From NCBI GenBank assembly GCA_038087875.1, contig CM075992.1:3350001-3414000 (forward strand): a DNA stretch of 64,000 nucleotides. Reading direction: 5' to 3'. The notes beneath the pieces were generated by a model. The model saw nothing but the letters and a program-made list of their open reading frames with translations, was not told the origin of the DNA and did no database searches. Source of the stretch: Malacoraja senta (Eukaryota). The position numbers and the translations under genes were made by a program. How positions within the stretch are numbered: the stretch's first letter is position 1; every line of letters starts with the position of its first letter. Shown here piece by piece: positions 22,401 to 59,100 of this stretch.

Positions 22401-25400
22401 GCTCCCGGAGAAAACCCACACAGGTCACGGGGAGAACGTAGAGACAGCACCCGTAGTCAGGAACGAACTTGGGTCTCTGGCGCTAAGGCCACTGCGCCAC
22501 CATGCCTACTAGTGCAAACATCCTCTCCATATCCACTCCATCCAGGTCTTTCACTATTCGGTAAGTTTCAATGAGGTACCCCACCCCACCCCCTCATCCT
22601 TTTAAACTCTAGTGAGTTCAGGCCCAGTGCCGTCAAAAGGCGGAGATTGGCAGATTCTTGATTAGTAAGGGTGTCAGGGGTTTTGGGGAGGAGGCAGGAG
22701 AATGGGTGCAGTACTGAGAGAGTGCCACACTGTCAGAGGGGCAGTACTGAGGGAGTGCCGCAGTTTTTTTTTAACCAAAAATAATTTATTCACCTATTTA
22801 CAATATGTAAATACTAAATTATTCAAAAACAAACACACCACCACAATACCAGCAAAACAAATATTCTCTAATTACTATTTCCCCACCTTATTTGCAAGCC
22901 AAGTCACTTTTATTTATATAGCACATTTACAAAACATCTCTCGTTGGCCAAAGTGCTTTACATTGGTGGAGGTACTAATGTTATACAACAGTGGTTCATA
23001 GATTAAATACAAACATCACTACATACATATAGCCCTCACTCAGAGGACGTCAAGAAAGGCTTGAGAGTAAAGATGAGTTTTTAGTCTTGACTTAAAGGAG
23101 TCGATGGAGGGGGCAGTTCTGATGGGAAGAGTGATGCTGTTCCACAGTCTAGGAGCTGCAACCGCAAAAGCGCGGTCGCCCCTGAGCTTATGCCTAGACC
23201 GTGGGATGTTCAGTAACCCCAAGTCGGCCAACCTGAGGGACCTGGAGGTGGTATGGTGGGGAAGCAGACTTTTGATGTAGGTGGGGGCAAGCGCGTCAAG
23301 GGCTTTGTAGACATAAAGGAGGATCTTGAAATTTATTCGGAACCGCACAGGGAGCCAGTGGAGAGAGGCCAGGATCGGGGTGATGTGGTCCCATTTTTCG
23401 GGTGCCCATCAGGAGTCTAGCTGCGGCGTTTTGGACCAGTTGCAGGCGAGACAGGGGAGATTGGCTGATGCCAGTGTAGAGGGAGTTGCAGTAATCTAGG
23501 CGGGAGGAGATAAATATTGAGGATACATTCCGCCCCCCGCGGTAATCACGGAAATCCCCCAGGGAGCCCGTGGACAGGGCGTAGTCCCTCTCTAACACCA
23601 CCCGGGCGCGGACGTAACCCCTGAAATGGGGCAGGCAGCCGGCTCGGGCAGAGCCCTCTTCCACCTGGCACTGTGGCTCACGGATGGCCAGCTTGGCCAG
23701 GCACAGGAGCAACCCAACCAGGACATCCTCGGCCCTGCCCTCTCCCCTATGCACAGGGTGTCCAAAGATGAGGGTGGTGGGTGTGAAGTGCAGCCAGAAG
23801 GCAAGGAGCAGCCCCCTTTAGATATTGGAACAGGGGCTGCAACCTCACACACTCCATGTACACGTGGAACACAGACTCTTCCAGCCCGCAAAAGTGGCAG
23901 GCGGCTGGTGAGTCTGTGAACCGCGAGAGAAATAGGTTGCAGGGGACCACCCCAGGTCACGGATGTAGAGGGGCAGTGTGTCACACTGTTAGTGTCAAGT
24001 GCTGAAGAAGTACCTTTTGAGAAAGCACCTTACCAATTTCCTTGAATTGAGAATACAGGTATGTTACACAGAGGAAGGACTGGCCATATGTCCTTCCACT
24101 GGATGGCCACTGATAACTTTCTTGAGTTGGCGGTGGAAAGTGCGGCGTACTGTGAACTAACCAGAAGCCTTGTGTCTGATCCAAAAGTACAACTCCTGGG
24201 TTTATGGGGGGAAAAAACAGACAATGATCAATAAAGAGTCACACTGAATTGTAGCAATTGTTTGCAGTGATGTAGCAGTTTTCATAACCTCGGTTGGATT
24301 CCAATTATGCCCTTTAGAACACCAGTGCAATATCCTATTTTATACAAGGCTGCTGGACTAACAAACTCTTTCTTGGAAGGGGACGCAAGTTTGGAACAAG
24401 AGAGGGTGTCTTTGTAGCTGCAGGGCGGCATGGTGGCGCAGCGGTAGAGTTACTGCCTTACAGCGCCAGAGACCTGGGTTCCATCCTGACTACGGCTGCT
24501 GTCTGTACAGAGTTTGTATGTTCTCCCCGTGACCTGTGTGGGTTTTCTCCGGGTGCTCCGGTTTCCTCCCACACTCCAAAGACATGCAGGTTTGTAGATT
24601 AAATGTTTAAGAAGGAACTGCAGATGCTGGAAAATCGAAGGTAGACAAAAATGCTGGAGAAACTCAGCGGGTGAGGCAGCATCTATGGAGCGAAGGAAAT
24701 AGGCAACGCTTTGGGTCGAAACCTTTCTTCGGACTTCTAAAGAAGGGTTTCGACCCAAAACGTTGCCTATTTCCTTCGCTCCATAGATGCTGCCTCACCC
24801 GCTGAGTTTCTCCAGCATTTTTGACTACCTCAGGTTTGTAGATTAATTGGCTTTGGTATAAATGTAAATTGTCCCTAGTGTGTGTAGGATAATGTTAGTG
24901 TGCGGGGATCGCTGGTCAGCGTGAACTCGACGGGCCGAAGGGCCTGTTTCCGCGCTGTATCTCTAAACTACACTAAACTCTATAGGACTTGGGTTAGGCC
25001 ACATTTAGAGTATTGCATGCAATTCTGGTCACCCCAATACTGGAAAGATGTGGGGGGGGGGGGGGGAGTTCGGAGAGGGTGCTGAGGAGATTTACCAAAA
25101 TGCTGCCTAGATTAGAGGGTTTCAGCTACAGGGAGAGGTTGGATAGACTTGGATTGTTTTCTCCGAAATATCCGGGGTTCAGGGGAGACTTGATTGAAGC
25201 ATATAAAAGTATGAGGGGCACAGATGCGGTAGACAGTCAGAACCTTTTTTTCCCCCAGGGTGGAAATGCCCAACACTAGAGGGCACAGCTGTATGGTGAG
25301 GGGGGGAAGGTTGAATGGAGATGTGTGGGGCAAGTTTTGTTTGGGGGGGGGTGCTGCTGAGGACAAAGGGGAACTAAATTGAACACTTTGTAACTTGCTC

Positions 25401-28400
25401 AACGTCCCTTATGTGGTGACTCTTTGCATACCTTGGGCAGGGTTAGGGTTAGGGTTATGGTTATGTCACCTGTGATAATAAAGTATCATCAATCAATTAA
25501 TTAATTACTTCATTCATTACTTAATTAAATAGTTCATTCATTCATTCATTCAGAGGTCGCGGTGGAGGCAGATACAATAGAGGTGTCTAAAAGGCCTTTA
25601 GATAAGCACATGGAAGTGCAGGGAATAGAGGGATACGGATCATGTACAGATAGAAGAGATCAGTTTAACTTGGCATTGCGTTCGGCACAGACGTTGTGGG
25701 CCGAAGGGCCTGAACCTGTGCTGAAATGTTCCATGTTTCCAATGATCCCAGGAATGAGTAGGTTAACCTATGATGAGCGTTTGTCGGCACTGGGCCTGCA
25801 CTCGCTGGAGTTTAGAAGAATGAGTGGGGACCTCATTGAAACAGAATAGTGAAAGGCTTGGATAGAATATTTCCACTAGTGGGAGAGTCTAGGACTAGAG
25901 GTCTTAACCTCGGAATTAAAGGACGTTCTTTTAGAAAGGAGATGATGAGAAATGTCTTTAGTCAGAAGATTCACAGAGGTGAATCTGTGGAATTATTTGA
26001 CGCAGAAGGCTGTGGAGGCCAAGTCAGTGGATATTTTTAAGGCAGAGATAGATTCTTGATTAGTACTGGTGTCAGGGGTTATGGGGAGAAGGCAGGAGAA
26101 TGGGGTTAGGAGGGAGAGATAGACCAGCTATGATTGAATGGTGGACTTGATAATAATGATAATAATGGCTTGTATTTACGGGTGCCTTATACAGAGGTCT
26201 CAAGGACACCTTACAGAGATTAACAAATAGGAAACATATAATCAGAATAAAATAAATTATAAAGACCAATACACAAATTAAGGACAGAATTCTTTCCAAA
26301 GACACAAAAAAGAAAATCAGAAACACAATTTGAGGCAAGATCAGCGGCAGCTAAACCACGCCAGCGTCCACTCTCCCCTCCGACCGCCATCTTGAACACA
26401 GACTAACATTGACACAACACACAAAAATCATCCCCCCACCTTCTGACTTATGTTTCACCTTTTGTGTGGCCACCGCCAGAGCTCGATCCGATCGGGCTCT
26501 GGTCATTGTAGAGCACAAACGCCACATTGTTACGCTGCAAAAGCAAGACAAAGGGTATCAGAATGGAAATGCCTCTTCCCGCAACTGCTTTTAATTCCAC
26601 TATTAGCTGCAGACATGGGGTGGGAGATTGCAACCTTCACGTGGTCCGCCCTGTTTCGACGAATGCAATCAACCTGGCGTGCACAATCAAATCAGATCAA
26701 ATAGAACAAGTTGTCCTACAACTTTAGGCTGTGCACGCCATACGCAAGAAGAAGAAGACGCTGCAGACATAAATAAAATCTGAATGTCGGAAGCACACAG
26801 CAGTTCAGGCAGCATCTGTAGAGAGTGAAACGCAGCTAGTTTTATACATGTGACTTTTCATCCATCTCAAAGATTGAGACAAAAAGCTGGAGTAACTCAG
26901 CGGGTCAGACAGCATCTCTGGAGAAAAGGAATCGGAAACCTGTACGTTCTCCCTGTGACCTGCGTGGGTTTTCTCCGAGATCTTTGGTTTCCTCCCTCAC
27001 TCCAAAGACGTAGGTTAATTGGCTTGGTGTATGTGTAAATTGTCCCTAGTGTAGGATAGTGTTAATGTGCGGGGATCGCTGGTCGGCGCGGACCCGGTGG
27101 GCCGAAGGGCCTCTTTCCGCGCTGTATCTCTAAACTAAACAAGAAACCAAACTCCATATGCAAAAAACAGCCACCACATGCCGACTGTTAAAAAAACTGA
27201 TCTATTCAGTTGGTAAACAAGGAACTGCAGATGTTGGAAAATCGGAGGTAGACAAAAATGCTGGAGAAACTCAGTGGGTGAGGCAGCATCTATGGAGCGA
27301 AGGAAATAGGCAACGTTTCGGGTCGATTTCCTTCGCTGAAGGGTTTCGGCCCGAAACGTTGCCTATTTCCTTCGCTCCATAGATGCTGCCTCACCCGCTT
27401 AGTTTCGCCAGCATTTTTGTTTTACCTTCTATTCAGTTGGTGTTTCGTTGAGTTAGGCCCACGACACCTCGGGAAGGCTCAACACTTGGTTCTGGGGTCC
27501 CAGAACGGTCCCCCTCAATACCTACTCTCACCACCTATGCTAACCAGTATCTACCCCATGAAGGAAGCTGCGGACAATTGATATGCAGACAGTATAGCCA
27601 TTGCAATCAAGAACAAGGTTTCCTTTACTTGTTCACAGGAGATGGTATCACAGGCATTTATTACACAGCCCTATTTAACCCTGTGCTGAATGGCAGGGTG
27701 GGCCTTTTCAGAGAGTGAACATGAGGATATGGAGTTACGTATAGAGCAGCTCAGGTAAGAACATTAATTTGTCCTTATAAGACTTTGGTAAATTGAATCT
27801 ACAATATCCTCTTAATATGTGTAGGAGGGAATTTTTTGCTCCATCCCAACTCTATATTTGCCTTTACTTAGATAGGTACGGACATAAAATAAAACAGCTC
27901 GTGGATCGGTGGTGAGTCTATCTAACAAGTTGGTTTATTAAAGGTCTCAACATTGCACACTGGGAAACACTCTGAGAGAACCCAAAGCGTTTAGAAGATA
28001 CAAAGTACCTACAGCATTTTACATTCTCATGACACAATGTTTAGTTTAATTGAGATACAGCACAAAAACAGGTCCTTCGGCCCACCGGGTCTGCGCCGAT
28101 CAGCGATCACTGCACATTAACACTATCCTACACCCACTAGAATTCTCCCAATTCTGCTAGCCCTTGCTGTCCCCTCCCCTTCATCAGCCCTCTGGTTGTC
28201 TCCTCCCCTCCCCCAGCCCTCGGGCTCCTCCTCCGCCTTTTTCCTTTTTTCCTTTCTTCTCCCCACCCCCTATCAGTCTGAAGAAGGGTTTCAGCCCGAA
28301 ACATTGCCTATTTCCTTCGCTCCATAGACGCTGCTGCACCCGCTGAGTTTCTCCAGCATTTTTGTGTACCTAGGGACAATTTTTACATTTACCAAGCCAA

Positions 28401-34272: not shown

Positions 34273-34408
34273 GGAGTGGAAGATAGCAACCTTCACGTGA
34301 TCCGCCCTGTTTCGACTAATGCAATTAACTCAACGCACAAACGGAAGATCAAATAGAACAAGTTGTCATACAACTTTAGGCTGTGCACCCCACTCGAAAG
34401 AAGAAGAG
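34273..34408 (+). mobile_element. HDV-ribozyme-headed SINE, diverged copy
   Basis: TSD AACTGAATTAT at 34262-34272 and 34409-34419; same head and (AGA)n tail. Confidence 0.85.
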
Positions 34409-38643: not shown

Positions 38644-40208
38644 ACATCGCAGACTAAAGTCTGAAGAAGGGTCTCAACCCGGAACGTCACCCATCCCTTC
38701 TCTCCAGAGATGCTGCCTGAGTTACTCCAGCACTTTGTGCCTATCTCACAGGCTGTAAACCGAACGACCATGAGGCACTCTGTAGACAAGGTTATCCGAT
38801 CAGTGAGTGAATGGAAGCTGAATTAGGACAACAGAGACAAACACAAAAATGCTGGAGTAACTCAGCAGGGACAGGCAGCATCTCTGGAGAGAAGGAATGG
38901 GTGACGTATCGGGTCGAGACTCGTCACCAGACCTTTAGTGGGAACTGGGCAATTTTAGAGATTAAAACAAAATAGTTGCAGAGAAAGTGGGAAGAAGTGG
39001 AAAGAACAATGTTGGCGACAATCCAACTGTGCTGTAATTGTCACACAAAGTGCTGGAGTAACTCAGTGGGTCAGGCAGCATCTCTGGAGAACATGGGATA
39101 GTTGACGTTTCAGGTCGGGACCCTTCTTCAGACCAATAGCAAAGTTTGAATAAGGAGTAAGCCATTTAGAACGGAGACGAGGAAACACTTTTTCTCACAG
39201 AGAGTGGTGAGTCTGTGGAATTCTCTGCCTCAGAGGGCGGTGGAGGCAGGTTCTCCAGATGCTTTCAAGAGAGAGCTAGATAGGGCTCTTAAAAATAGCG
39301 CAGTCAGGGGATACGGGGAGAAGGCAGGAACGGGGTACTGATTGGGGATGATCAGCCATGATCACATTGAATGGCGGTGCTGGCTCGAAGGGCCGAATGG
39401 CCTACCCCTGCACCTATTGTCGATTGTCTCCTGCACCTATTGTCTGATGAAGGGTTTCGGCCCGAAACGTTGCCTATTTCCCTCGCTCCATAGATGCTGC
39501 TGCACCTGCTGAGTTTCTCCAGCATTTTTGTCTACCTTCGATTTTCCAGCATCTGCAGTTCCTTCTTAAACACCTATTGTCTATTGTCTGTTGTAATAGT
39601 GAGCACAGTGTATTGTGCCCCAGTATTTAATTGAAGAAAATTTCTGAAAATTTCTGTCTGTTTAATGTTATCTGTTGAGGTTGGAATTGGAGAAGCGCAT
39701 GGATCTCAGATGTCCATCGAACAGAGTGATGGGGAGAGTTTTCAAATATTTTCCCATGAAAGTATTTTGAAAAGTGTTTTGTCCTTTTACACATGAGTTA
39801 TGCTGTTTTCTTTCCTTCCATTTGCGATTTCTGGTTGTGACTCAGTTTGGACAGGAGAGTTTTGTGATTTATCTGTTTTTCAACAATGTAACATTACCTC
39901 AGACATCCTACATCATTCAGTTTGCAACAGTAGGTTAGAGACTCAACATTATATGGTGTTAACAGATGCTGTCCCATGAACATACATCTACCCATTTTGA
40001 AAACCTATGTAGAGTCTCAATGTATTCGTGAAGACATTAAAAAAAAACCAAAGACAAACATTTTTAAATTATTGCTTAGCCCCCAAAATTAATCAAAGTA
40101 AGAGGCTTACGTCTGAAGAGGCTCAGTCTGAAGAAGGGTCTCGACCCGAAACGTCACCCATTACTTCTCTTCATGCTGCTGTCCTGCTGAGTTACTCCAG
40201 CATTTTCA

Positions 40209-41332
40209 CAAATCACAATCACAATCACACAATCACACAATCACAATCACACAATCACACAATCACACAATCACACAATCACAATCACACAATCACACAA
40301 TCATCACACGATCACAATCACACAATCACACAATCATCACACGATCACAATCACACAATCACACAATCACAATCATCACACAATCACACAATCACACAAT
40401 CACAATCACACAATCACACAATCATCACACAATCACACAATCACAATCACACAATCACACAATCACACAATCATCACACAATCACACAATCACACAATCA
40501 CACAATCACACAATCACACAATCACAATCACACAATCACACAATCACACAATCACAATCACACAATCACAATCACATAATCACAATCACACAATCACACA
40601 ATCATCACACAATCACAATCACACAATCACAATCACACACAATCACACAATCACACAATCACACAATCACACAATCACACAATCACAATCACACAATCAC
40701 ACAATCACAATCACACAATCACACAATCACACAATCACACAATCACAATCACACAATCACACAATCACAATCACACAATCACAATCACATAATCACATAA
40801 ACACAATCATCACACAATCACACAATCACACAATCACACAATCACACAATCACAATCACACAATCACAATCACATAATCACATAAACACAATCATCACAC
40901 AATCACACAATCACACAATCACAATCACACAATCACAATCACACAATCACAATCACATAATCACAATCACATAATCACAATCACACAATCACAATCACAC
41001 AATCACACAATCACAATCACACGCAATCACACATTCACACAATCACACAATCACAATCACACAATCACAATCATCACACAATCACACAATCACAATCACA
41101 CAATCATCACACAATCACACAATCACAATCACACAATCACACAATCACAATCATACAATCACAATCACAAAATCATTACACAATCACACAATCATTACAC
41201 AATCACAATCACACAATCCCCAAATCACAATCACAATCACACAATCACAATAACACAATCACAATCACACAATCATCACACAATCACAATCGCACAATCA
41301 CACAATCCCAAAATCACAATCACAATCACAAT
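40209..41332. repeat. (CACAAT/CACACAAT)n array of about 1.1 kb
   Basis: Read directly from the sequence; abuts the tail of a LINE-like repeat. Confidence 0.95.
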
Positions 41333-41606
41333 AATACTTTATTAGCCAAGTTTGTTTTGCAACATATGAGGAATGTCATTTGCCAAGTCAGTCATACAAA
41401 TGTAAATGAACGGAACACACAAAATGCATTTGAACACAAACATCCACCACAGTGATGTTGTGTCTTTGGTATGTCACATGTACTGAGGTACAGTGAAATT
41501 CATTTTTGTGTACAGTTCAGCAGGTATCACTGTACATAAGCACTTTGAAACATATTAGATAAGCACATCAGATGCAGTACAAGTGTATACAGTAGCAGTA
41601 GTACAC

Positions 41607-41743
41607 TCTTCTTCTTTCGTGTGGCGTGCACAGCCTAAAGTTGTTGGACAACTTGTTCTATTTGATCTTCCGTTTGTGCACGTCGAGTTGATTGCATTAG
41701 TCGAAACAGGACGGACCACGTGAAGGTTGCAATCTTCCACCCC
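41607..41743 (-). mobile_element. HDV-ribozyme-headed SINE, 13-bp TSD
   Basis: TSD AGCAGTAGTACAC at 41594-41606 and 41744-41756; the ribozyme fold is intact on the minus strand at 41690-41743. Confidence 0.9.
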
Positions 41744-42846: not shown

Positions 42847-43145
42847 GGCACGGTGGCGCAGCGGTAGAGTTGCTGCCTCACAGCGCCAGAGACCCGGGTT
42901 CCATCCCGACTACGGGTGCTGTCTGTACGGAGTTTGTACCTTCTCCCCATGACCCGCGTGGGTTTTCTCCAAGATCTCCCGTTTCCTCCAACGCTCCTAA
43001 GACGTACAGGTTTGTAGGATAATTGGTATAAATGTAAATTGTACCTAGTGTGTGTAAGATAGTGTTAGTGTGCGGGGATCGCTGGTCAGCGCCGACTCGA
43101 TGGGCCGAAGGGCCTGTTTCCACACTATCTCCAAACTAAACTAAA
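42847..43145 (+). mobile_element. HE1-like V-SINE, full length
   Basis: GGCACGGTGGCGCAGCGGTAGAG head, V-core and (CTAAA)n tail. Confidence 0.9.
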
Positions 43146-43185
43146 ATAAACACACACCTCTCATAATCTGACTGATATAAAGATA

Positions 43186-44162
<977 letters not shown>

Positions 44163-44254
44163 ATAGAAACATACAAAAATAGGCGCAGGAGTAGACCATT
44201 CGGCCCTTCGAGCCAGTAACACCATTAAATATGATCATGGCTGATCATCTAAAC

Positions 44255-50100: not shown

Positions 50101-53100
50101 TGTGCGACGTGACCATCCGAGGGAGACACTTCATGGGGCGGGGGTCACTCAGCAGGGCCGGTTCAGAGCAGTGATAGCTCTGGGGATGAAGCTGTTCCTG
50201 AGTCTGGAGGTGCGGGCGTAGAAGGCCTTGTAACGTCTGCCGGAAGGTAGGAGTTCGAACAGTCCATTACAAGGGTGTGAGGAGTTACAAACTGCCTTGA
50301 TTGCACTTGGGACTGAGTACAGAATTCAGTCTCAGCTTCAGTTCAGTTCAGTTTAGTTTATTGCCACGTGCATCGAGGTACAGTGAAAACAACTCACAAA
50401 CAACTTTGCTCCCATCTGGCAAAAGACCTGAACTACTATCTACTTCTTTGGTGACCCTAGACCTATCTTCGATCGGACTTCACTGGCATTACCTTGCACT
50501 AAACGTTATTCCCTTACCATGCATCTGTACACTGTGGACGGCTCGATTGTAATCATGTATTGTCTTTCCGCGGACTGGTTAGCAAAAGCTTTTCACTGTA
50601 CCTCGATACACGTGGCAATAAACTAAACTGAACTGAAGCTGAGACTGAATTCTGTACTCAGTCCCAAGTGCAATCAAGGCAGTTTGTAACTTCCACAAAC
50701 AAGCGGAAACAAGCCGGCAATGGCAGCACTGCTTACCCAGAAGGCCGTGCGCCGCAGAAAGTGCCCTGGACGCATCCAGACACCACTGAGCCAATGAAAC
50801 GAATACAATGTTACTCAGCGGATCAGGCAGCATCTCTGGAGAACATGGAGAGGTGACGTTACGGGTCGAGAGCCTTCTGCAGACTCTGAGTCATTTCGGG
50901 CAGGGGGTGGGGATCAACGACCCTATAGCGAGCAAGATAGATCACTCGACGAAAAAGACGTAGTACGGTCATGGGCAGATTCATGGGGTAATTTTCGGCC
51001 CCATTTCCGTAACCGGCTTCCGTCTCCGCACCAAAGATCCCACAGCGGAGCAAAGATAACTAGTGCGGAGACGGAAGCCGGTTACGGAAACATCCTCGTA
51101 AAAATAAAAGTTCAAAATCTTCTCCTCATTTTCAGAATTATAATTTATTAACACAAACTGTTCCCCCGCAACGTTGATTACACTGCGGGTCGGGTCGGGT
51201 CGGGTCACTGAAATGGATGAAAAAAAGGCCCACTTTCCGCTCCGTTGCGTACTACACGTCAGCCCATTGCATTTAGCAGGAGTGGTCTATCTTGCTCCAC
51301 TATAGGATCTTTGGTGGGGATGGTGATTCTGACATGCGTAAAATCTGACTTACGTAAAGGTTCACGGAAGGTAAAGGTAGGGGAAGCAAGAACCAGAGGA
51401 TAAAGGTTTAAGGTGAGAGGGGAAAGATTTATTAGAAATCGGAGGGGCAATATTTTCACAGATAGAATATGCTGCCAGTGGAGGTAGTTGAGGCAGGAAC
51501 TATAACAACATTGAAAAGACATTTGGACAACTATATGTTTAAGAAGGAACTGCAGATGCTGGAAAATTGAAGGTAGACGAAATGCTGGAGAAACTCAGCG
51601 GGTGAGGCAGCATCCATGGAGCGAATGAAATAGGCAACGTTTCGGGTCGAGACCCTTCTTCAGACAAATACATGGGTAGGAAGGGTTTAGAGAGATACAC
51701 ACGATAGACACAAAATGCTGGAGTAACTCAGCGGGAGAGGCAGCATCTCTGGAGAGAAGGAATGGGTGACGTTTCGGGTCGAGACCCTTCTTCCGACCAG
51801 ACACGTCACCCATTCCTTCTCTCCAGAGATGCTGCCTGGCCCGCTTATTTACTCCAGTTTTTTTGTCTTTATCTTCGGTTTAAACCAGCATCTGCAGTTC
51901 CTTCCTGTGCAAATCTGGTGTATCCTTGGAGAGTTTCACAACACACATGCTGAAAGCTTCCACTTACCTGCTCATTCGCGCTATTAATGACAAAGAGATT
52001 GCCCCCATGGAGGGAGCAGTACTGCTGGCTATTGTGCCACGTGGCTTCCGCGATTGAGAAGAAGTAGCAGCTCTCATCAAAGGCGATCCAGTTACTGGGG
52101 CATTGAAGGTTCCGACACTCTGAAAAACATTCAGTTCAGTCTAGTTCAGGGGTTCCCAACCTTTTTCGTCCCGTTTACCCCTGGCAACTTTAATCTTTTG
52201 TGTCTATCTTGAATTTTCTTGACCCCGCTCTTTTTTTTTTTTTTTTTTTTTCTTTCCGTAAATGTTTTTTTTATTAGATTTTTAAACAAATGTACAATTT
52301 ACAAGGAAGGGTAGAAAGCTCACACAATTTAAAAAACACTTTCACAAAATTATCAAATTAAAATATTAACATTTTTATCTATAATATATTCAACCTCCTG
52401 CGGTGACCAGCGTTCACAGAAGGCCTCCACAGTCCCCGTGGACACCGCGTGTTCCCTCTCTAGGGACACGCGGGCACGGACGTAACCCCGGAAAAGGGGC
52501 AGGCAGCCAACCGCTGTGCGGCCATCGACCGCCCGCTGCCTGGACCCGCGAATGGCCATCTTGGCCAGGCCCAGGAGCAGTCCGACAGGGAGACCCCCTC
52601 CTCCCTCCCGACCCTCCCCCCTCTTTACCGGGTGCCCATAAATTAATAGCGTTGGACTAAAATGTAACCAAAACTTGAGGAGCAGCCCCTTCAAATACTC
52701 GAACAGGGGCTGCAACCTCTCGCACTCTATATACACGTGGAACACGGTCTCTTCCTCACCGCAGAAATGACACGCAGGGGAAGAGTCCGTGAACCGGCTC
52801 AAGTACCTATTACAGGCCACGGCTTTGTGCAAAACTCTCCACCCCAGGTCCCCGATGTAAAGGGGGAGGACTCCCTTGTAGAGATACCTCCACTGGGGAC
52901 CGCTCCCCTCGTCAGGTGGTAACACGTACCGCCAGGGTGTGTCTGGACGGAAGACGAGGGCGAGGAAGTGGAGAGTGTGCAAGAGCAGCCTGTACAGTAC
53001 TCGCCTCTCCGCGCCACGGAATGGCACACTGGGCATCTCAGAAAGGCGGCTCATGTTGCATGGGGCCGGCTCTCGGGGAGGGTCCCGGGCCATGGGCCCT

Positions 53101-56100
53101 ATGAACAATTCCGACTGAGCGGGGGTAAGCTCGTCCGGAATCGCTCCATGCACACGCCTCTCCTCGATACCCACCGTCACAGCCACGACACCCCCCTCCC
53201 CCTGAGGAGCAGGGCCCTGGCTGAAGGTGACCAAATTCCTGGCCTTCAGGACTTCACGGTAAAAGCCAGGCAACTCCCGCCTAGCGCGTCGACTCATGCC
53301 CGCTACCGGGAGCCGGGAGCCCTCCTGAAGGCACCGCCCCTGACGGAAAAAGTACGTCGCCAGCACGTGCCATTTAGGAGGGTAGTCCGAGTAGACGTAC
53401 CTCCGCAGGGTCCTGAGTCGGAGAGCCGCCACCTGGGTACGAATACAGACCAGCGCCTGACCACCCTCCTCCAACGGGAGACTCAGAACCCCAGCAGAGA
53501 CCCAGTGGTTCCTCTCCCCCCAGAAGAAGTTGACCAATCTCCTCTGTAACATGGTTATAAAATAAGAGGATGGGACCATAGTGGCCATCCGGTACCACAG
53601 TAGAGAGGCCACCAGCTGGTTTATAACTATAGCCCTGCCCCGGTAAGAGAGCACACCAAGTAGGCCTGACCAACGTCCCAGCCGGGCGACCACTTTCGCC
53701 TCCAGCTCCTGCCAGTTCGCCGGCCACCCCTCCTCAGCGGGACTCAGGTAGACCCCCAGATAAAGGAGGTGCGTGGTACTCCACGCAAAACCTGCCATCT
53801 CCTCCGGCAGGGAGTCCACCTGCCACCCACCCATCAAGAGACCAGAACACTTCCCCCAGTTGATCCTGGCGGAGGATGCAGCCGAGAAAACCTGCTGGCA
53901 CTCACGCATCCTCCGCAGGTCAACAGGGTCGGTGAACATCAGAAGGACATCATCGGCGTAGGCCGAGAGAACCACCTCCATCCCCGGCCCCGGTAAAGCC
54001 AGGCCTGTCAACCGCCTCCGGAGAAGGCACAGGAAAGGCTCGACACAGATGGAATACAGCTGGCCGGACATGGGACATCCCTGACGAACCCCCCTCCCAA
54101 AGGGAATGGGGGCCAACAAAGAGCCGTTGACCTTAACAAGGCATTCTGCAGCAGTATATAACAGTCGGACCCAGGCCACAAAATGCGGTCCAAATCCGAA
54201 CGCCTGCAGAGTCCCAAGAAGGTAGTCGTGCTCCACCCTGTCAAACGCCTTCTCCTGGTCGAGGGAGAGAAAGGCGACCGACTGACCAGCCCCCTGGGAC
54301 AGATGGATCAGGTCCCGGAGCAGATGGATATTGTCCTGGATGGACCGGCCCGGGACTGTGTACGACTGGTCAGGGTGGATCACCTGGGACAGCACGGGAC
54401 CCAGGCGATTCGCCAATGCCCTTGCAAAGACTTTATAGTCCGTGCTGAGGAGAGAGACCGGGCGCCAGTTCTTCAAAAGGCGAAGATCGCCCTTCTTGGG
54501 CAGCAGGACAACAACTGCCCTGCGCCAAGAGAAAGGCATCTCCCCGGTCGCCAGGCTCTCCCCCAGGACCTTCATATAGTCGCCCCCCAGGACATCCCAG
54601 AAGGCTCTAAGGTACTCCACAGTCAGCCCATCCAGCCCTGGAGACTTGCCCCTCCTAAGCTGGTGCAGGGCACCAGTCAACTCCTCCAGAGTTAGGGGAT
54701 CATCCAGGTGTTCAGCCACATCATTGCACACTACGGGTAAGCCCTCCCACAGGACTTCTTGCGCCTCCCCACTCGATGTGCCAGCTGAGAACAGAGTCCT
54801 GTAGAAAGACCGAACCGAGGCACCAATGCTCTCTGGATCTGTGACAGAGGAGCCATCATCCGCAAGCAACTCTACAAGCTGCCTGCGGGCTCCTCGCCCC
54901 TTCTCCAGAGAAAAGAAAAAGGGGGAGGCGCGGTCCAGGTCGTGCAACATCTGGACCCGCGACCTCACATACGCACCCCGGGACCTCCTAAGCTGCAAGT
55001 CCCTCAGTGCTCCCTTCTTCTCCTGGTATTCCTCCCACTCACACGAAGCCCCACCAGTCTGATCCAGATGAGCCTCCGAGTCGAGCAACTCTCTCTCAAG
55101 CCGTCCGATCTCGGATTCCCGCCCCTTGGTCGACCCCCTCGCATAGTCCTGGCAAAACTGACGGACGTAGACTTTCCCCACGTCCCACCACTGCCTTAGG
55201 GAAAGGAAACGCCCCTGCCTCTCTCTCCACCTCACCCAGAACTGCCTGAATGAATCCCGGAATCGGCAATCCTCCAACAGCTGGCTATTTAAATGCCAGT
55301 ACGCGGACCCTGCCCGTGTGCGCGCTGGGATAAAGTCCACTCGCACCAGGCAATGGTCCGAGCATGGCGCCGGCTGCATGGAGGCTGCCGAAACACAAGA
55401 GACATAGGCCTTGGACACGTATAAATGATCAATACGGGACCCACCACCCTCAAACCTGTACGAGAAGGCGTTAGAGTCAGGATGGAAATTCCGCCAAGCA
55501 TCTACCAGCTCAAAAGAGTCCACCATCTCCCTCAAAGTCTTCACTGCTCCCGGGTCACGCTGAACGCCAGAGCGATCTCTTGTCTCAAGGGCACAATTAA
55601 AATCTCCCCCAAGGAAAACACACTCCCCACGGTCGATAGTATTCAACAACGTGGTCACTTCCCCTGTTAAGCGCGTCTGCATTGCGCCGATCTTGGGGGC
55701 GTACACATTAACGAAGTGTAATGGCACACCATCCAAGCGCACGGCCAGATACAGCAAACGGCCTGGTACAACCTCCTGCACTTTGAGGATCTCCGGCTGG
55801 AAAGACGGGGCCAACAGGAAGGCTACTCCACTCGATTTGGAGCTGAGATGACTCATATAGACCCCCCCCTCCCACTCCAGGAGCCATGTGGGTTCATCAC
55901 TAGCCACAGTGTGTGTTTCCTGCAGGAAGCTCACCGCATATCTCCCGTCTCTGAGCACTGAGAGATGGTGAAACCTACGGAGAGACCCCCTGCCCCCATT
56001 GATATTAAGGCTGGCTATAGTGAGCTTCATTTTGAAAGTACACTTGATCTTTTACCCGTCCCCGGTGATGGATTGGAGCCGCCCCTACCCTTCTTCCCTC

Positions 56101-59100
56101 TCTTTAGGGCCTTAAAAAGCTCTTGGAACTGGCGCCTCTCATTTCTTACTAGCCCCGCCTCATTCCCCTTCTTCTGAAGGATGGCATGAATGGACTGCAT
56201 GGGCGCCATCAGGTCCGACCAGCGGTCGACAGCCAACTCCACCTTGTTCCTACTCCCTCTAGTGTCCTTTAAGAACTTCCGAAGTTCCCAGACTTCGACA
56301 AGTTGAGACACGGGGCCGCGGGTGGAGCAGTCCGTCAACTCATTGTCGATGGACTCCGGGTACCCCTCCTCCTCACACTCAATGTCCGAGCCCGAGTCCA
56401 GATGGTTACTACTCTCAGCCGCCTCGCTCACCCCTCCCTGTGAGGTGGGCATTCCAGCCACATCACACAGTCCCTCCTCTGTCACCATCCCACCCCCAGG
56501 ATCAGTGACAGGGGCAGGTACCGGTGCCTCTGACCGCGGCAAGCTTTCTGACAGTTGGCCAGTCTCCTGCACGCTCCCATCGCCCTCTGTAACCAGATTG
56601 GGAACAGTGAACTCAGAGCAAGTCTCCGGGCCTTGCTGTAAGCGAGTCTGTCTGGAGTCCGACCTAAGGACACGATCCAAAACGATCTTGCCCTCCTCCG
56701 CACCCAGGGTATCCGCCCCTGCACCGTCACCCAGAGAGTCCCCGTCCCCCACCACCAGGTGAATCACCCCACTGTGTCCCTCAGGGGCCGATGTTACTGG
56801 AGTCTCCCCTGCTCCCTCAACCAGTGGGGCATTACACCCCTCAACTGGGCTTGTAGCCTCAACGGGGAGCTCATGTTGGGGACCCACCCCCTCACCCAAT
56901 TCCCCCCTTCAGGCTGCCCCTGGTCATCCACTAAGCTAGCAGACATGTTTTCTGGGGGAACAGCCCCCAAGAGCAATATATCGCCACTCTCAGGTGGCCC
57001 CAGACCTACAGAGGCATCCTCCCCCTCAGAGGAAACTTGCCCTGGGTACCCCACCTCAACAGGAGGGGAAGGCTCCCCTTCAGGTTGCCCCTGAACTTCA
57101 GGGCCCTTCTCTGTATCGGACGACCCATGCCTCCTCCTCTTCGAACCACTGGCGTACGGTGGTACGGTGAGCTCCATTGCAGAAGCCTCTACCTCCACAT
57201 TACCTTCTATCTCAGAGGCGAGCATGAAATTATCTGCTTCCTGGGGTCCCGCTTGGAGGTGATCATCTTCTAGGGGATCAGCCTGGAGATGTTTCTTCTT
57301 TTTATTGACTTTCCTCCCCTGCTGATGCTCCCAAACCTTCCCATCCACCCTACGCACTTCTCCGGCATCCACCGCCACAGGTACGGGACATGGGGGTGGT
57401 GGGGGGATAGGGGTTGGGGGTAGGGGAGTAAAGCCTTCACGGGCCACCGTGGTAAAACCAGCAGCCCCAGATGGGCCAGTAGTGCTTTCCCGTGCCATCG
57501 TGGTGGAACTGGCAGCCCGGGTCCTGGGACAATTCTTGCGAAAATGCCCCACCTGTTTGCAACCGTGACAACGCACTTGGCCCGCATTCCAGAACACGCG
57601 ATAGGAGAAATCATCCACCTCCACCTCAAAACTCCCCTCCGTGTCCATCCCCTTTGCCAACTGTATATACACGCGACGCTTGAACGTATATACATGCTGC
57701 ATCTCAGGATCGTCAAACCTGTACAACAGTTTGGTGAGCCCTGACCGCACCTCCCCCAGCTTCCTTACATGTGGGAGCAGGAGCGCATCCGGAACAAAAG
57801 TGGGAACATTGGACAGAATGACCGGCAAAACGGGACCCCCCCATGGGTCCACCGCCGCGAAAATCCCCCCTGCTGTTACCCCCCTTTCCAGAGCCAGAGC
57901 CACCGCCTGTTCAGTCTTTAGTATAACCACAACCTTCCCACTGACCACCGCGCCCGAGACTATGGCTTTCTTGCCAACAGTCTCACCCAACGCATCTAGA
58001 AAGGCCTTTAAGGGCAGGTTGCTCTTCATGTACATTTTTACACCATATGTGCGCCCCATCAACTCATGGCCCTCAGTCTCTGAGACTGCCGACCGCGCGA
58101 CAGCTGCATAACTCTGAGGGGCCGCCATCTTTAGGGCGTGGCACAACACACAAAGTATCAGTAGTTTATATCCAAAGCAGTCTTTCTGCTGTTGCTGCAC
58201 CTCCACTCTTTTGCAGCAGTTAAATAGTCCTGTGAAGGCTTTCTTGGCAAGCAACAGAAGCAGTCTCCTCCTGATAAGATAGGAAATGTCCGTGCCAATC
58301 CTCCCCGTCGTAAAAAAATGGAGCTTCCTTATGCTTCTTCCTCAGGCCTCCGACTCCTCCCCGGCTTCAACGAAATCCAAGGCACTGTTGCCGTTCTTAC
58401 CCAGCCCACCTGGACCGGGCAAGTCGGTGTAGGAGGGAGCTTTCCGATGTTACTGACCACAAACACCACTCTAGACTCAGCTCCCACTCGTTCAAGTGTA
58501 ACTTGGCCTTCCGCCAGCCACTGCCGCTCCTACGACTTTACAGATACACGGACAAATCCTCCCTAATTAGAGGAATCCTTGAACAAAGAAAGTCTCTGCA
58601 GATCGACAAAGCTCTGAACTGCAAAGTCTGACTGCTTTTGTTTCTCCCCGCCAAACAAAACCTTCTGAAAAGTTCATCAAATCCTCCCCGCCAGCAGAAC
58701 AGCTCCTCACCTGGCCCCGCTCTGGGAGTAGAAGTGGGGGCGGATCCGGACCGCAACGGCCGTGAGCCCCAGGCCGAGTTCGGCGATCGTTTGCCTGCTC
58801 CTGCTGCTGTTGGAGGTGAGACGTTGCGTCGCGCCAGGGTCTTGGGCCTGTCCCACTTTGGCCGTCAGTTACGCGACAGGCTGTGGGCGCGCGAAGATTT
58901 CGTTCACTACAAAAATTTCGGAGCCCCGCGCGATGTCGCGCACAACTACACACCCCTCCGCGTTTCTCAGTGGGACCGGCCCCGCGCGGCCACACGATGC
59001 CCGTGCGCCTCAACGCGACGGCGAGGTCGCGTAATTTGCGTGCCAAGGACACGTAAGTGGGACAGGGCCCTTAAGTCCTTTGCTTCTCTAGGGAGCAGAG

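What the first reader, a model, noticed from the sequence alone, without database searches (positions are those of the whole stretch)
26606..26770. SINE that begins with a complete HDV/CPEB3-like self-cleaving ribozyme
Seen: a 143-bp element between 11-bp TSDs. Its first 54 nt give the full nested double pseudoknot: P1 GGGGUGG/CCGCCCU with a G1-U wobble, P2 GAUUGCA/UGCAAUC, P3 ACC/GGU, L3 UUCACGU, a minimal UUCG P4, and J4/2 CGAA with the candidate catalytic C at 26660. The 3' half has an 11-bp stem (TGGCGTGCACA/TGTGCACGCCA) and an (AGA)n tail, with no tRNA A/B boxes. All three copies in the window start exactly at G1, the predicted cleavage site. Established: HDV-like ribozymes process the 5' ends of R2, RTE and L1Tc retroelements; from recall, L3 matches the mammalian CPEB3 ribozyme. 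Inference: a promoter-less SINE that cuts itself out of host transcripts and is copied by a LINE partner (an RTE-like one is suggested by the tail). I cannot confirm whether it has been described.
Basis: partly seen in the sequence, partly recalled or inferred. Interest (0 to 1): 0.92.

Follow-up and report, generated by a model that had tools for sequence, protein, structure and literature searches.

The report
Ribozyme-headed mini-LINE in a skate genome
A 143-base mobile element, present in thousands of copies in a skate-like fish genome, is a cut-down copy of a LINE retrotransposon that starts with a probable self-cutting RNA closely related to the ribozyme so far known only from the mammalian CPEB3 gene.

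Summary
Window 26617-26759 is a 143-bp retroposon between 11-bp target-site duplications. Its first 54 nt fit the HDV-like double pseudoknot, which no shuffle of the window reproduced (0 of 100).

The family is large. Its ribozyme core occurs 7,533 times in the 1.94-Gb genome, and 27 of 33 tail-selected copies start within 3 nt of G1.

The partner LINE was found. It is RTE-like in architecture. One near-full-length copy begins with the same ribozyme plus 27 shared bases, and three 3' ends share the element's last ~44 bases. The "SINE" is therefore a short internally deleted LINE, like the R2 SIDEs and NARTc, which makes it a known kind.

A second LINE family in this genome carries 5' ribozymes that pass Rfam's cut-off for the mammalian CPEB3 ribozyme (up to 64 bits; cut-off 35). 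Between the two families, 8 of 17 helix pairs changed on both sides and none broke, while L3 and J4/2 stayed identical.

The element itself scores only 11-14 bits in Rfam, because it lacks P4.

Self-cleavage, lack of a promoter and expression were not tested. Only assembled contigs were on hand.

The finding offers a testable origin for the CPEB3 ribozyme, a family reported as unknown outside mammals.

The parts
26606..26616 (+). left target-site duplication, gctgcagacat
   Evidence: identical 11-mer at 26760-26770
26617..26670 (+). P4-minimal CPEB3/HDV-like ribozyme. P1 26617-23 / 26646-52; J1/2 26624-25; P2 26626-32 / 26664-70; P3 26633-35 / 26643-45; L3 26636-42; G plus P4 remnant 26653-59; J4/2 CGAA 26660-63 with the candidate catalytic C at 26660. 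The predicted cut lies 5' of G26617.
26671..26697 (+). segment derived from the LINE 5' UTR just downstream of the ribozyme (element nt 55-81)
   Evidence: element nt 2-81 match L097 517-595 at 90%; 44 genomic junctions between this segment and LINE-specific sequence
26698..26715 (+). middle segment (element nt 82-99) matching neither LINE end; holds the 5' arm of the inner hairpin (26708-14)
26716..26759 (+). LINE 3' end: last codons of the LINE ORF, its stop codon TAG (26725-27), an ~18-nt 3' UTR and the (AAG)4 tail (26746-57)
   Evidence: L076, L081 and L096 share element nt 100-134/142; the LINE ORF ends ...DLQL* in CAACTTTAG
26675..26685 (+). 5' arm (TGGCGTGCACA) of the 11-bp stem, from the LINE 5' UTR part
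26730..26740 (+). 3' arm (TGTGCACGCCA) of the 11-bp stem, from the LINE 3' UTR part
   Evidence: 3' domain -23.9 kcal/mol, z -3.64
26760..26770 (+). right target-site duplication
41607..41743 (-). second copy, older CTAA subfamily, 90% identical, 12-bp duplication tgtactactgct
34273..34407 (+). third copy, 84% identical, 11-bp duplication aactgaattat; its helices have decayed

Best explanation
The element is a non-autonomous, internally deleted derivative of an RTE-like LINE family of this skate-like genome. It keeps two parts of the LINE. The first is the LINE's opening 81 nt: a 54-nt CPEB3-type HDV-like ribozyme without P4, plus 27 nt of 5' UTR. The second is the LINE's last ~44 nt: the end of the ORF, its stop codon, a short 3' UTR and an (AAG)n tail.

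Inferred mechanism: a copy is transcribed as part of a longer host or read-through transcript. The ribozyme folds and cuts just 5' of G1, so the RNA template begins exactly at G1. The LINE's reverse transcriptase, supplied in trans, recognises the shared 3' end and copies the RNA by target-primed reverse transcription. This produces full-length inserts that abut 7-13-bp target-site duplications.

Shown here: the anatomy, the copy numbers, the uniform 5' ends, the shared LINE ends, and covariation of the fold across LINE families. Inferred: cleavage itself, the source of transcription, and use of the LINE enzyme.
For: Fold. All three helices, G1-U, L3 and the J4/2 C are present. My descriptor hit 1 site in the window and 0 in 100 shuffles. 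When only 26612-26678 was scanned, the only 2 of 4227 Rfam families at E<=10 were both HDV-like, RF02682 and RF00622.

Family size. The 27-mer ribozyme core at <=2 mismatches has 7,533 places (control 0), and 30 of 30 sampled places are this element. The 3' 22-mer has 10,476 places.

5' ends. In one search, 38 of 40 matches start at query nt 1. Of 33 consecutive tail-selected copies, 21 start at nt 1, 5 at nt 2 and 1 at nt 3, and a target-site duplication was detected at 18 of these 27.

Partner. The LINE C-terminal peptide has >=1,655 candidate places. The near-full-length LINE copy L097 begins with the same ribozyme. The ribozyme-to-LINE junction 49-mer has 44 places, control 0. The LINE 3' ends share element nt 100-143.

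Covariation. A second LINE family (L099, L100) has GGGGAUC/GAUCCCU, GGUAGAA/UUCUACC and GCG/CGC in place of this element's helices. Eight of 17 pairs changed on both sides and 0 broke, while L3 and CGAA are identical. Random partners kept all pairs in 47 of 200,000 trials. That family passes Rfam's CPEB3 cut-off at 52.6 and 40.7 bits against 35. Genome-wide, 39 of 59 scored candidates pass, up to 64.2 bits.

Subfamilies. The two subfamily consensuses differ at 2 sites in nt 1-54, both unpaired and one of them the grouping site, against 11 sites in nt 55-143.

Core deletion. Copies lacking the ribozyme core are rare: 32 places against 7,533.
Against: No cleavage assay and no RNA 5'-end data exist.

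The element itself is far below Rfam's cut-offs: 11 bits against 35, and 14.4 against 44. It was not reported at all in scans of the whole window or of 261 nt around it.

P4 is missing, so activity rests on analogy with minimal HDV-like ribozymes.

Uniform 5' ends would also follow from a fixed transcription start.

Copies with the 16-nt core deletion still start at G1 and have their own target-site duplications (L032, L035, and 1097492+ with a 9-nt deletion). Either a dead ribozyme does not stop insertion, or these deletions arose during reverse transcription.

Within the family, the common helix variants G26648A and C26647T keep pairing but are also CpG decay.

The covariation rests on two lineages plus the Rfam consensus. 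For family 2 I took the P1 5' strand from the first of several repeat units.

The LINE 5' end was read in one copy only (L097), which has T or nothing in place of G1. The family-1 LINE copies seen are all broken.
Confidence: 0.8

Rival explanations
1. The head is mainly an internal promoter, or another cis element such as a reverse-transcriptase or translation signal. The uniform 5' end would then be a transcription start, and the HDV-like fold would be inactive or secondary, as with Pr77 of L1Tc, which is both promoter and ribozyme.
For: Uniform 5' ends alone do not separate a start site from a cut. Core-deleted copies still begin at G1. The head has no P4 and scores low in Rfam. PMC3383444 (abstract seen in the listing) describes a dual promoter/ribozyme head.
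Against: No tRNA, 7SL, 5S or snRNA likeness was found, and the A/B-box matches are at chance level. Helix-specific compensatory changes across LINE families, with an invariant catalytic core, are what an RNA fold predicts and not what a DNA promoter predicts. The sister family is a full Rfam CPEB3-ribozyme match. A dual role is not excluded.
Confidence: 0.13
2. The double pseudoknot is a chance resemblance in an ordinary repeat.
For: Rfam found nothing at its gathering thresholds in the window.
Against: The descriptor hit 0 of 100 shuffles. The fold begins at the element's first base. L3 matches the CPEB3 consensus at 7 of 7 positions. The same fold heads the LINE and a second LINE family, where 8 pairs changed on both sides and stayed paired.
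Confidence: 0.02
3. The copies are genomic deletion products or segmental duplicates of LINE copies, not a family that retrotransposes on its own.
For: Two pairs of loci are duplicates with identical flanks: L007 with L008, and L011 with L013.
Against: There are thousands of copies with the same internal junction and different flanks and duplications. Some copies are 5'-truncated yet carry their own duplications, which is typical of target-primed reverse transcription (L036).
Confidence: 0.02

Closest known systems
R2 SIDEs, the Short Internally Deleted Elements of Drosophila (Eickbush & Eickbush 2012, PMC3414825; abstract read)
   Same: They are a LINE's 5' HDV-like ribozyme joined to its 3' end, have no ORF, and are copied by the parent's enzyme. 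The ribozyme sets the exact 5' end.
   Different: SIDEs are rare and insert site-specifically into rDNA. This element is dispersed, has about 10^4 copies, lives in a vertebrate, derives from an RTE-like LINE, and has a P4-less CPEB3-type core.
NARTc / L1Tc and the Pr77 hallmark of trypanosomatids (PMC3185411, PMC3383444, PMC4035085; abstracts seen in the listing)
   Same: A non-autonomous truncated partner shares the LINE's 5' HDV-like ribozyme.
   Different: The LINE clade differs (L1Tc/ingi). That head is 77 nt and doubles as a promoter, and there is no sequence likeness to CPEB3.
HDV-like ribozymes of RTE and baggins LINEs (Ruminski et al. 2011, known here only through the review PMC6765202; passages read)
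   Same: A 5' HDV-like ribozyme on promoter-less RTE-type LINEs frees the element from co-transcripts. The review also says that some non-autonomous SINEs use HDV-like ribozymes.
   Different: From recall, those examples are from insects and other invertebrates. I could not read the primary paper, so I cannot say whether vertebrate RTEs or CPEB3-type cores are covered there.
Mammalian CPEB3 ribozyme, Rfam RF00622
   Same: L3 UUCACGU...CCCUGU and CGAAU are identical, and the helix plan is the same. The sister LINE family shares a 17-nt run, AGAAGCGUUCACGUCGC, with the consensus and passes the family's cut-off.
   Different: CPEB3 is a single-copy intronic element conserved in mammals, reported as 'not found outside of mammals' (PMC8233481; passage read). 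The elements here are multi-copy, sit at LINE and mini-LINE 5' ends, and are in a skate-like fish. The window's copy lacks P4 and scores 11 bits.
Minimal HDV-like and theta ribozymes (PMC10879173; abstract start seen in the listing)
   Same: A very small HDV-like core.
   Different: Those are bacterial or phage elements next to tRNAs. That they lack P4 is my recollection and was not checked here.
Schistosome SINE-like elements with hammerhead ribozymes (PMC6765202; passage read)
   Same: A SINE-like retroposon that carries a self-cleaving ribozyme.
   Different: The ribozyme class is hammerhead, transcription is by Pol III, the copies are tandem, and the cleavage resolves multimers.

Membership tests
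HDV-like ribozyme (structural class) | Nested double pseudoknot: P1 (7 bp), P2, P3 (3 bp) with L3, in the order P1-P2-P3-L3-P3'-P1'-(P4)-J4/2-P2' | tested here: met
   1 site in the window, 0 in 100 shuffles; 17 of 17 pairs form in both LINE families
HDV-like ribozyme (structural class) | G at +1 closing P1 as a G-U wobble, and a C in J4/2 placed as the catalytic C | tested here: met
   G26617 with U26652, and C26660 in CGAA. The same letters stand in family 2 and in the Rfam CPEB3 consensus. This is sequence only; that these residues are the defining ones is established knowledge, recalled.
HDV-like ribozyme (structural class) | Compensatory changes that keep the helices | tested here: met
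   between family 1 and family 2, 8 of 17 pairs changed on both sides and 0 broke. Within the SINE family only CpG-type single changes were seen.
HDV-like ribozyme (structural class) | Self-cleavage 5' of G1, dependent on divalent metal | not testable with these tools
   No assay was possible. The sequencing runs were contigs only.
Rfam RF00622 CPEB3 ribozyme / RF02682 HDV-F-prausnitzii | Bit score at or above the curated gathering score | tested here: not met
   The window element scores 11 bits (cut-off 35) and 14.4 bits (cut-off 44), with no hit at gathering. The sister LINE family does meet it: 52.6 and 40.7 bits, and 39 of 59 scored candidates genome-wide.
Rfam RF00622 CPEB3 ribozyme | Location in an intron of CPEB3, conserved in mammals | tested here: not met
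   The host is skate-like: a DNase II exon is 90% identical to Amblyraja radiata. The elements sit at LINE or mini-LINE 5' ends.
SIDE-type non-autonomous LINE derivative | 5' end identical to the parent LINE's 5' end, ribozyme included | tested here: met
   nt 2-81 at 90% to L097; 44 junctions to LINE-specific sequence
SIDE-type non-autonomous LINE derivative | 3' end identical to the parent LINE's 3' end, no ORF, dispersed copies with target-site duplications | tested here: met
Classical SINE (Pol III head from tRNA, 7SL or 5S) | Head related to a Pol III gene, with A and B boxes | tested here: not met
RTE clade of LINEs (the partner) | A single ~1000-aa ORF with an N-terminal APE endonuclease and RT, an element of about 3.2 kb, and a very short 3' UTR ending in short tandem repeats | tested here: met
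   The homologue P0001 is 1019 aa, with APE at 56-234 and RT at 516-757, on a 3344-nt contig. The LINE's stop codon is followed by 18 nt and then (AAG)n. That these features define RTE is recalled.
RTE clade of LINEs (the partner) | Placement inside the RTE clade in an RT phylogeny with reference elements | not tested
   No reference RTE, Rex3 or other clade sequences were on hand.

The most novel reading that the evidence does not exclude
The mammalian CPEB3 ribozyme is a domesticated 5' end of an RTE-type LINE or of one of its mini-LINE derivatives. This skate-like genome still carries active-looking relatives. One LINE family has 5' ribozymes that pass the Rfam CPEB3 model at up to 64 bits, and a second has shed P4 and spawned a ~10^4-copy mini-LINE. 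These would be the first members of the CPEB3 ribozyme family outside mammals. They would supply the missing outgroup and a concrete retrotransposon origin for it, and by extension for the HDV-type core.
Probability: 0.4. Interest if true: 0.8.

Novelty: new member of a known kind. Interest (0 to 1): 0.62.

Why it matters
Ribozyme-headed LINEs and their deleted derivatives are known, so the mechanism is not new. Three things are worth noting.

First, a derivative of this kind has reached about 10^4 dispersed copies in a vertebrate genome. The "ribozyme plus 3' end" design can therefore work as a successful SINE strategy without a Pol III head.

Second, the core is CPEB3-type. A sister LINE family in the same genome is a full Rfam match to the "mammalian" CPEB3 ribozyme, a family that a 2021 study states has not been found outside mammals (PMC8233481). 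This makes the origin of that ribozyme directly testable, by surveying LINE 5' ends across vertebrates and by looking for LINE remnants around the CPEB3 ribozyme.

Third, the natural P4-less variant and the tandemly repeated half-ribozymes offer ready material for structure-function work.

Tried and rejected
RNA evidence. No RNA holder was listed. The four runs laid were Logan contigs, which cannot show RNA ends. Their cover stops at the repeat's borders, as expected for any repeat.

Rfam. At gathering thresholds it found nothing in the window or in 102,963 bases of other loci. At E<=10 over 261 nt it gave only two unrelated weak hits.

Genome searches that failed. A 64-nt DNA query of the ribozyme returned no candidates at all. 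I read this as the tool skipping very common words, and the pattern search then showed 7,533 places. A negated pattern meant to find the ribozyme followed by non-SINE sequence found one truncated copy. It missed the LINE because the LINE shares the next 27 nt with the element.

Metagenome scan. The scan for LINE relatives gave only one 3' fragment, L103, with no 5' end.

Other LINE 5' regions. L101, a third LINE family, shows a degenerate CPEB3-like arrangement that I could not parse with confidence. L102 shows nothing.

Earlier notes. The scan's earlier notes held nothing on this genome or sequence. One unrelated negative note from another genome did not bear on this case.

Papers. Ruminski 2011, Webb 2009 and Webb & Luptak 2011 are not held. 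Whether they already describe vertebrate RTE or CPEB3-type LINE ribozymes is therefore open. Searches for 'CPEB3-like' plus ribozyme, HDV-like plus shark and ribozyme plus chondrichthyan terms found no such report.

Limits met. For that reason the tail-selected sample is 33 copies rather than 60, and the best-scoring CPEB3-type copies and the 61-65-nt size class were not read.
Full report
**The observation**

One search shows the 11-mer gctgcagacat at 26606-26616 and again at 26760-26770, around a 143-bp element (26617-26759).
- P1 GGGGTGG / CCGCCCT, with G1-U
- P2 GATTGCA / TGCAATC
- P3 ACC / GGT
- L3 TTCACGT
- CGAA, with its C at 26660

P4 is at most one U-A pair around UUCG, so it is effectively missing.

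The 3' half (26671-26759) folds with the stated 11-bp stem (26675-85 / 26730-40) and an inner 7-bp hairpin. Its energy is -23.9 kcal/mol, with z = -3.64, and 1 of 200 shuffles folded as well.

Two further copies lie in the window: 41743-41607 (-) at 90% identity and 34273-34407 (+) at 84%. Both start at the same G and have their own duplications.

I wrote a generic HDV-like descriptor with these requirements: P1 of 7 bp, J1/2 of at most 5 nt, P2 of 6-7 bp, P3 of 3 bp, any 7-nt L3, a G after P1', and C-N-A-A directly before P2'. It hit only this site in the 64-kb window on both strands, and hit nothing in 100 dinucleotide-preserving shuffles.

**Rfam**

At gathering thresholds nothing was found in the window. 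An E<=10 scan of 261 nt gave only two unrelated weak hits. When only 26612-26678 was scanned, the only two of 4227 families at E<=10 were both HDV-like:
- RF02682: 14.4 bits, E 0.57, the whole model aligned on 26617-26670
- RF00622 (CPEB3): 11 bits, E 1

Both are far below their cut-offs of 44 and 35.

**Family size and 5' ends**

The window lies in a 1.94-Gb assembly. A 27-mer of the ribozyme core, at up to 2 mismatches, occurs 7,533 times, against 0 for the reversed control. All 30 sampled places are this same short element. A 22-mer of the 3' body occurs 10,476 times, control 0.

In one search, 38 of 40 scored matches start at query nt 1 and 2 start at nt 3.

For a sample not chosen by the ribozyme, I took the first 33 listed places of the 3' 22-mer. 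All are perfect matches on the first 7.2 Mb of contig C1, so they are young copies. Their starts were:

| Start (element nt) | Copies |
|---|---|
| 1 | 21 |
| 2 | 5 |
| 3 | 1 |
| 6 | 1 |
| 20 | 1 |
| 89 | 1 |
| 98 | 1 |
| about 100, with LINE-type sequence upstream | 2 |

The script detected a target-site duplication at 18 of the 27 copies that start within nt 1-3, next to the first G or within a base or two of it. So 5' ends are uniform.

No tRNA was found. The best matches to A and B boxes are at chance level; the consensus was recalled from memory.

**The partner LINE**

One tail-selected copy, L076, continues upstream into an open frame ending ...HIVNDCPLRNFPGGIKAIHPVIDAVLAWMSTLDLQL*. Its stop codon is the TAG inside the element's CAACTTTAGG.

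That 44-aa peptide has at least 1,655 candidate places in the genome. The 150 scored are 84-100% identical, with open frames of 44-254 aa.

A 254-aa piece (L096) finds 33 longer proteins. The best, P0001, is 60% identical and 1019 aa long, on a 3344-nt contig. It has an APE endonuclease at residues 56-234 and RT at 516-757. Most of the other hits are about 1000 aa on contigs of 3.1-3.7 kb.

The LINE's stop codon is followed by about 18 nt and then (AAG)n. This is the RTE architecture as I recall it. Rex3, an RTE-like fish LINE, likewise has its stop codon 3 nt before short repeats (PMC6274825; passage read). No phylogeny was made.

Searching the genome with P0001 located a near-full-length family-1 copy on C8. 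Its 5' region, L097, reads flank, then the same ribozyme plus 27 further shared bases (element nt 2-81, 90% identity over 80 nt), then LINE-specific sequence with an ATG.

A 49-mer spanning P2' into LINE-specific sequence occurs 44 times at up to 3 mismatches, control 0.

The element is therefore the LINE's first 81 nt joined to its last ~44 nt, with 18 nt between them that match neither end. It is a short internally deleted element.

Some 5' junctions lie only about 130 nt from C-terminal matches, so other deletion derivatives exist.

**A second LINE family and covariation**

I read the regions upstream of the ORF starts of other RTE-like families found.

L099 and L100 belong to a family whose ORFs are open over 1014 and 1008 aa. 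Their heads read GGGGATC AA GGTAGAA GCG TTCACGT CGC ... GATCCCT GTC, then a 7-bp P4, then G CGAA TTCTACC.

Rfam scores them as the mammalian CPEB3 ribozyme above its cut-off of 35: 52.6 bits (E 1e-12) and 40.7 bits (E 8e-9), with the full model aligned.

Genome-wide, 59 candidates were scored. Of these, 51 match at E<=0.001 and 39 pass the cut-off, up to 64.2 bits. None of 14 control genomes gave a hit. Four of these hits lie 29-59 nt upstream of LINE ORF matches, by comparison of coordinates.

Between family 1 (this element) and family 2, 8 of 17 helix pairs differ on both sides and still pair, 9 are unchanged and none is broken. L3 and CGAA are identical. With random 3' partners, all pairs held in 47 of 200,000 trials.

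Three caveats apply. Only two lineages were compared. The family-2 P2/P3/L3 letters are a majority consensus over 10 repeat units. Its P1 5' strand comes from the first unit.

**Within the family**

The two subfamily consensuses (55 and 20 of 85 distinct copies) differ at 2 sites in nt 1-54. Both are unpaired, and one of them was the grouping site. They differ at 11 sites in nt 55-143.

The commonest helix variants in four runs' contigs, G26648A and C26647T, keep pairing (U-G to U-A, and G-C to G-U). They are also CpG transitions.

**Evidence against, and gaps**

- No cleavage or RNA-end data exist. No RNA holder was listed and only contigs could be laid.
- The element fails Rfam's cut-offs and lacks P4.
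- Copies with a 16-nt deletion of P3-L3-P1' still begin at G1 and have their own duplications. There are 32 such places, on three subfamily backgrounds. This pattern suggests recurrent skipping by the reverse transcriptase rather than a thriving ribozyme-less lineage, but it does not prove that.
- The family-1 LINE 5' end was read in one copy only.
- All family-1 LINE copies seen are broken.

**Host**

A DNase II exon at 23984-24238 (-) is 90% identical to the protein of the thorny skate and 72-78% identical to those of the other sharks and rays listed. The host is therefore a skate-like elasmobranch, not a mammal.

**Comparison with what is known**

HDV-like ribozymes at the 5' ends of R2, L1Tc, baggins and RTE LINEs are established, as is their use by non-autonomous partners. 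The sources I saw are:
- the review PMC6765202 (passages read)
- R2 SIDEs, PMC3414825 (abstract read)
- NARTc (abstracts seen in the listing)

The mechanism is therefore of a known kind, and this is a new member. It differs from the known cases in being dispersed, high in copy number, in a vertebrate, P4-less and CPEB3-type.

Bendixsen et al. [quoted passage not shown] My searches found no report of CPEB3-type ribozymes in fish LINEs. The key primary papers could not be read.

**Verdict**

I put the confidence that the head self-cleaves in the source copies at about 0.8.

The broader lead deserves follow-up: CPEB3-type ribozymes are LINE 5' ends in this genome, and the mammalian ribozyme may descend from such an element.

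Noticed in passing
L099 (reverse strand) 246-455; L100 (reverse strand) 323-482: The family-2 LINE heads hold 6 and 4 tandem copies of a 26-nt unit, which is the 5' half of the CPEB3-type ribozyme. Only the first unit has the full P1 strand, and only the last is followed by P1', P4, J4/2 and P2'. The intervening units would form a long J1/2 insert, or offer alternative folds.
   Followed up: partly
own genome, one search list (for example C13:8596080-8596144, C2:95332788-95332852): The RF00622 matches fall into several size classes between 61 and 89 nt. The 61-65-nt class (35-44 bits) may head other LINE or SINE families.
   Followed up: no
L032 6940-7069, L035 6940-7069; 32 places: The same 16-nt deletion, removing P3, L3 and P1', recurs on three subfamily backgrounds. 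It lies between CC microhomologies. The copies still start at G1 and have their own duplications.
   Followed up: partly
window 26675-26685 / 26730-26740; L097 571-581: The LINE's 5' UTR segment just after the ribozyme is complementary to its 3' UTR around a GTGCAC palindrome. The younger mini-LINE subfamily has changed CGAC to TGGC, which extends the stem to 11 bp. This may be a 5'-3' pairing or a recognition hairpin.
   Followed up: partly
window 52356-56051 (-): An open 1232-aa LINE ORF with APE endonuclease, RT and zf-RVT domains. It is a different LINE, and overlapping ORFs lie upstream (56030-58341).
   Followed up: partly
window 23984-24238 (-): A DNase II exon, 90% identical to the Amblyraja radiata deoxyribonuclease-2-alpha-like protein.
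   Followed up: yes
window 51872-52135 (-): An 88-aa ORF that looks like a C-type lectin domain exon (CPSNW...WHNSQQYC). This is by eye only.
   Followed up: no
window 43144-44244 and 40013-41452: A microsatellite of about 1.1 kb, (CA)n / (TG)n, and a ~1.4-kb low-complexity tandem array whose ORF translations repeat HNHTITQS-like motifs.
   Followed up: no
C1:362366220-362366531 (-), C1:280427739-280428178, C2:89908520-89908844: LINE 5' junction matches lie within 130-300 nt of LINE C-terminal matches, some head-to-head. These are further short deletion derivatives or rearranged copies.
   Followed up: no
L101 (reverse strand) 350-480: A third RTE-like LINE family has a degenerate CPEB3-like arrangement: GGGG, then a ~45-nt insert, GGATCA, GCG TTCTCGT, CCCCCCGTCAG, a 6-bp P4, and TGATCC. 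Rfam gave no hit for it at E<=1.
   Followed up: partly
L103 1200-1398: A metagenome relative of the LINE protein (78% to P0006 over residues 578-1000) ends with a short 3' UTR and an (AAAT)n tail. This is the same RTE-like plan with a different repeat.
   Followed up: no
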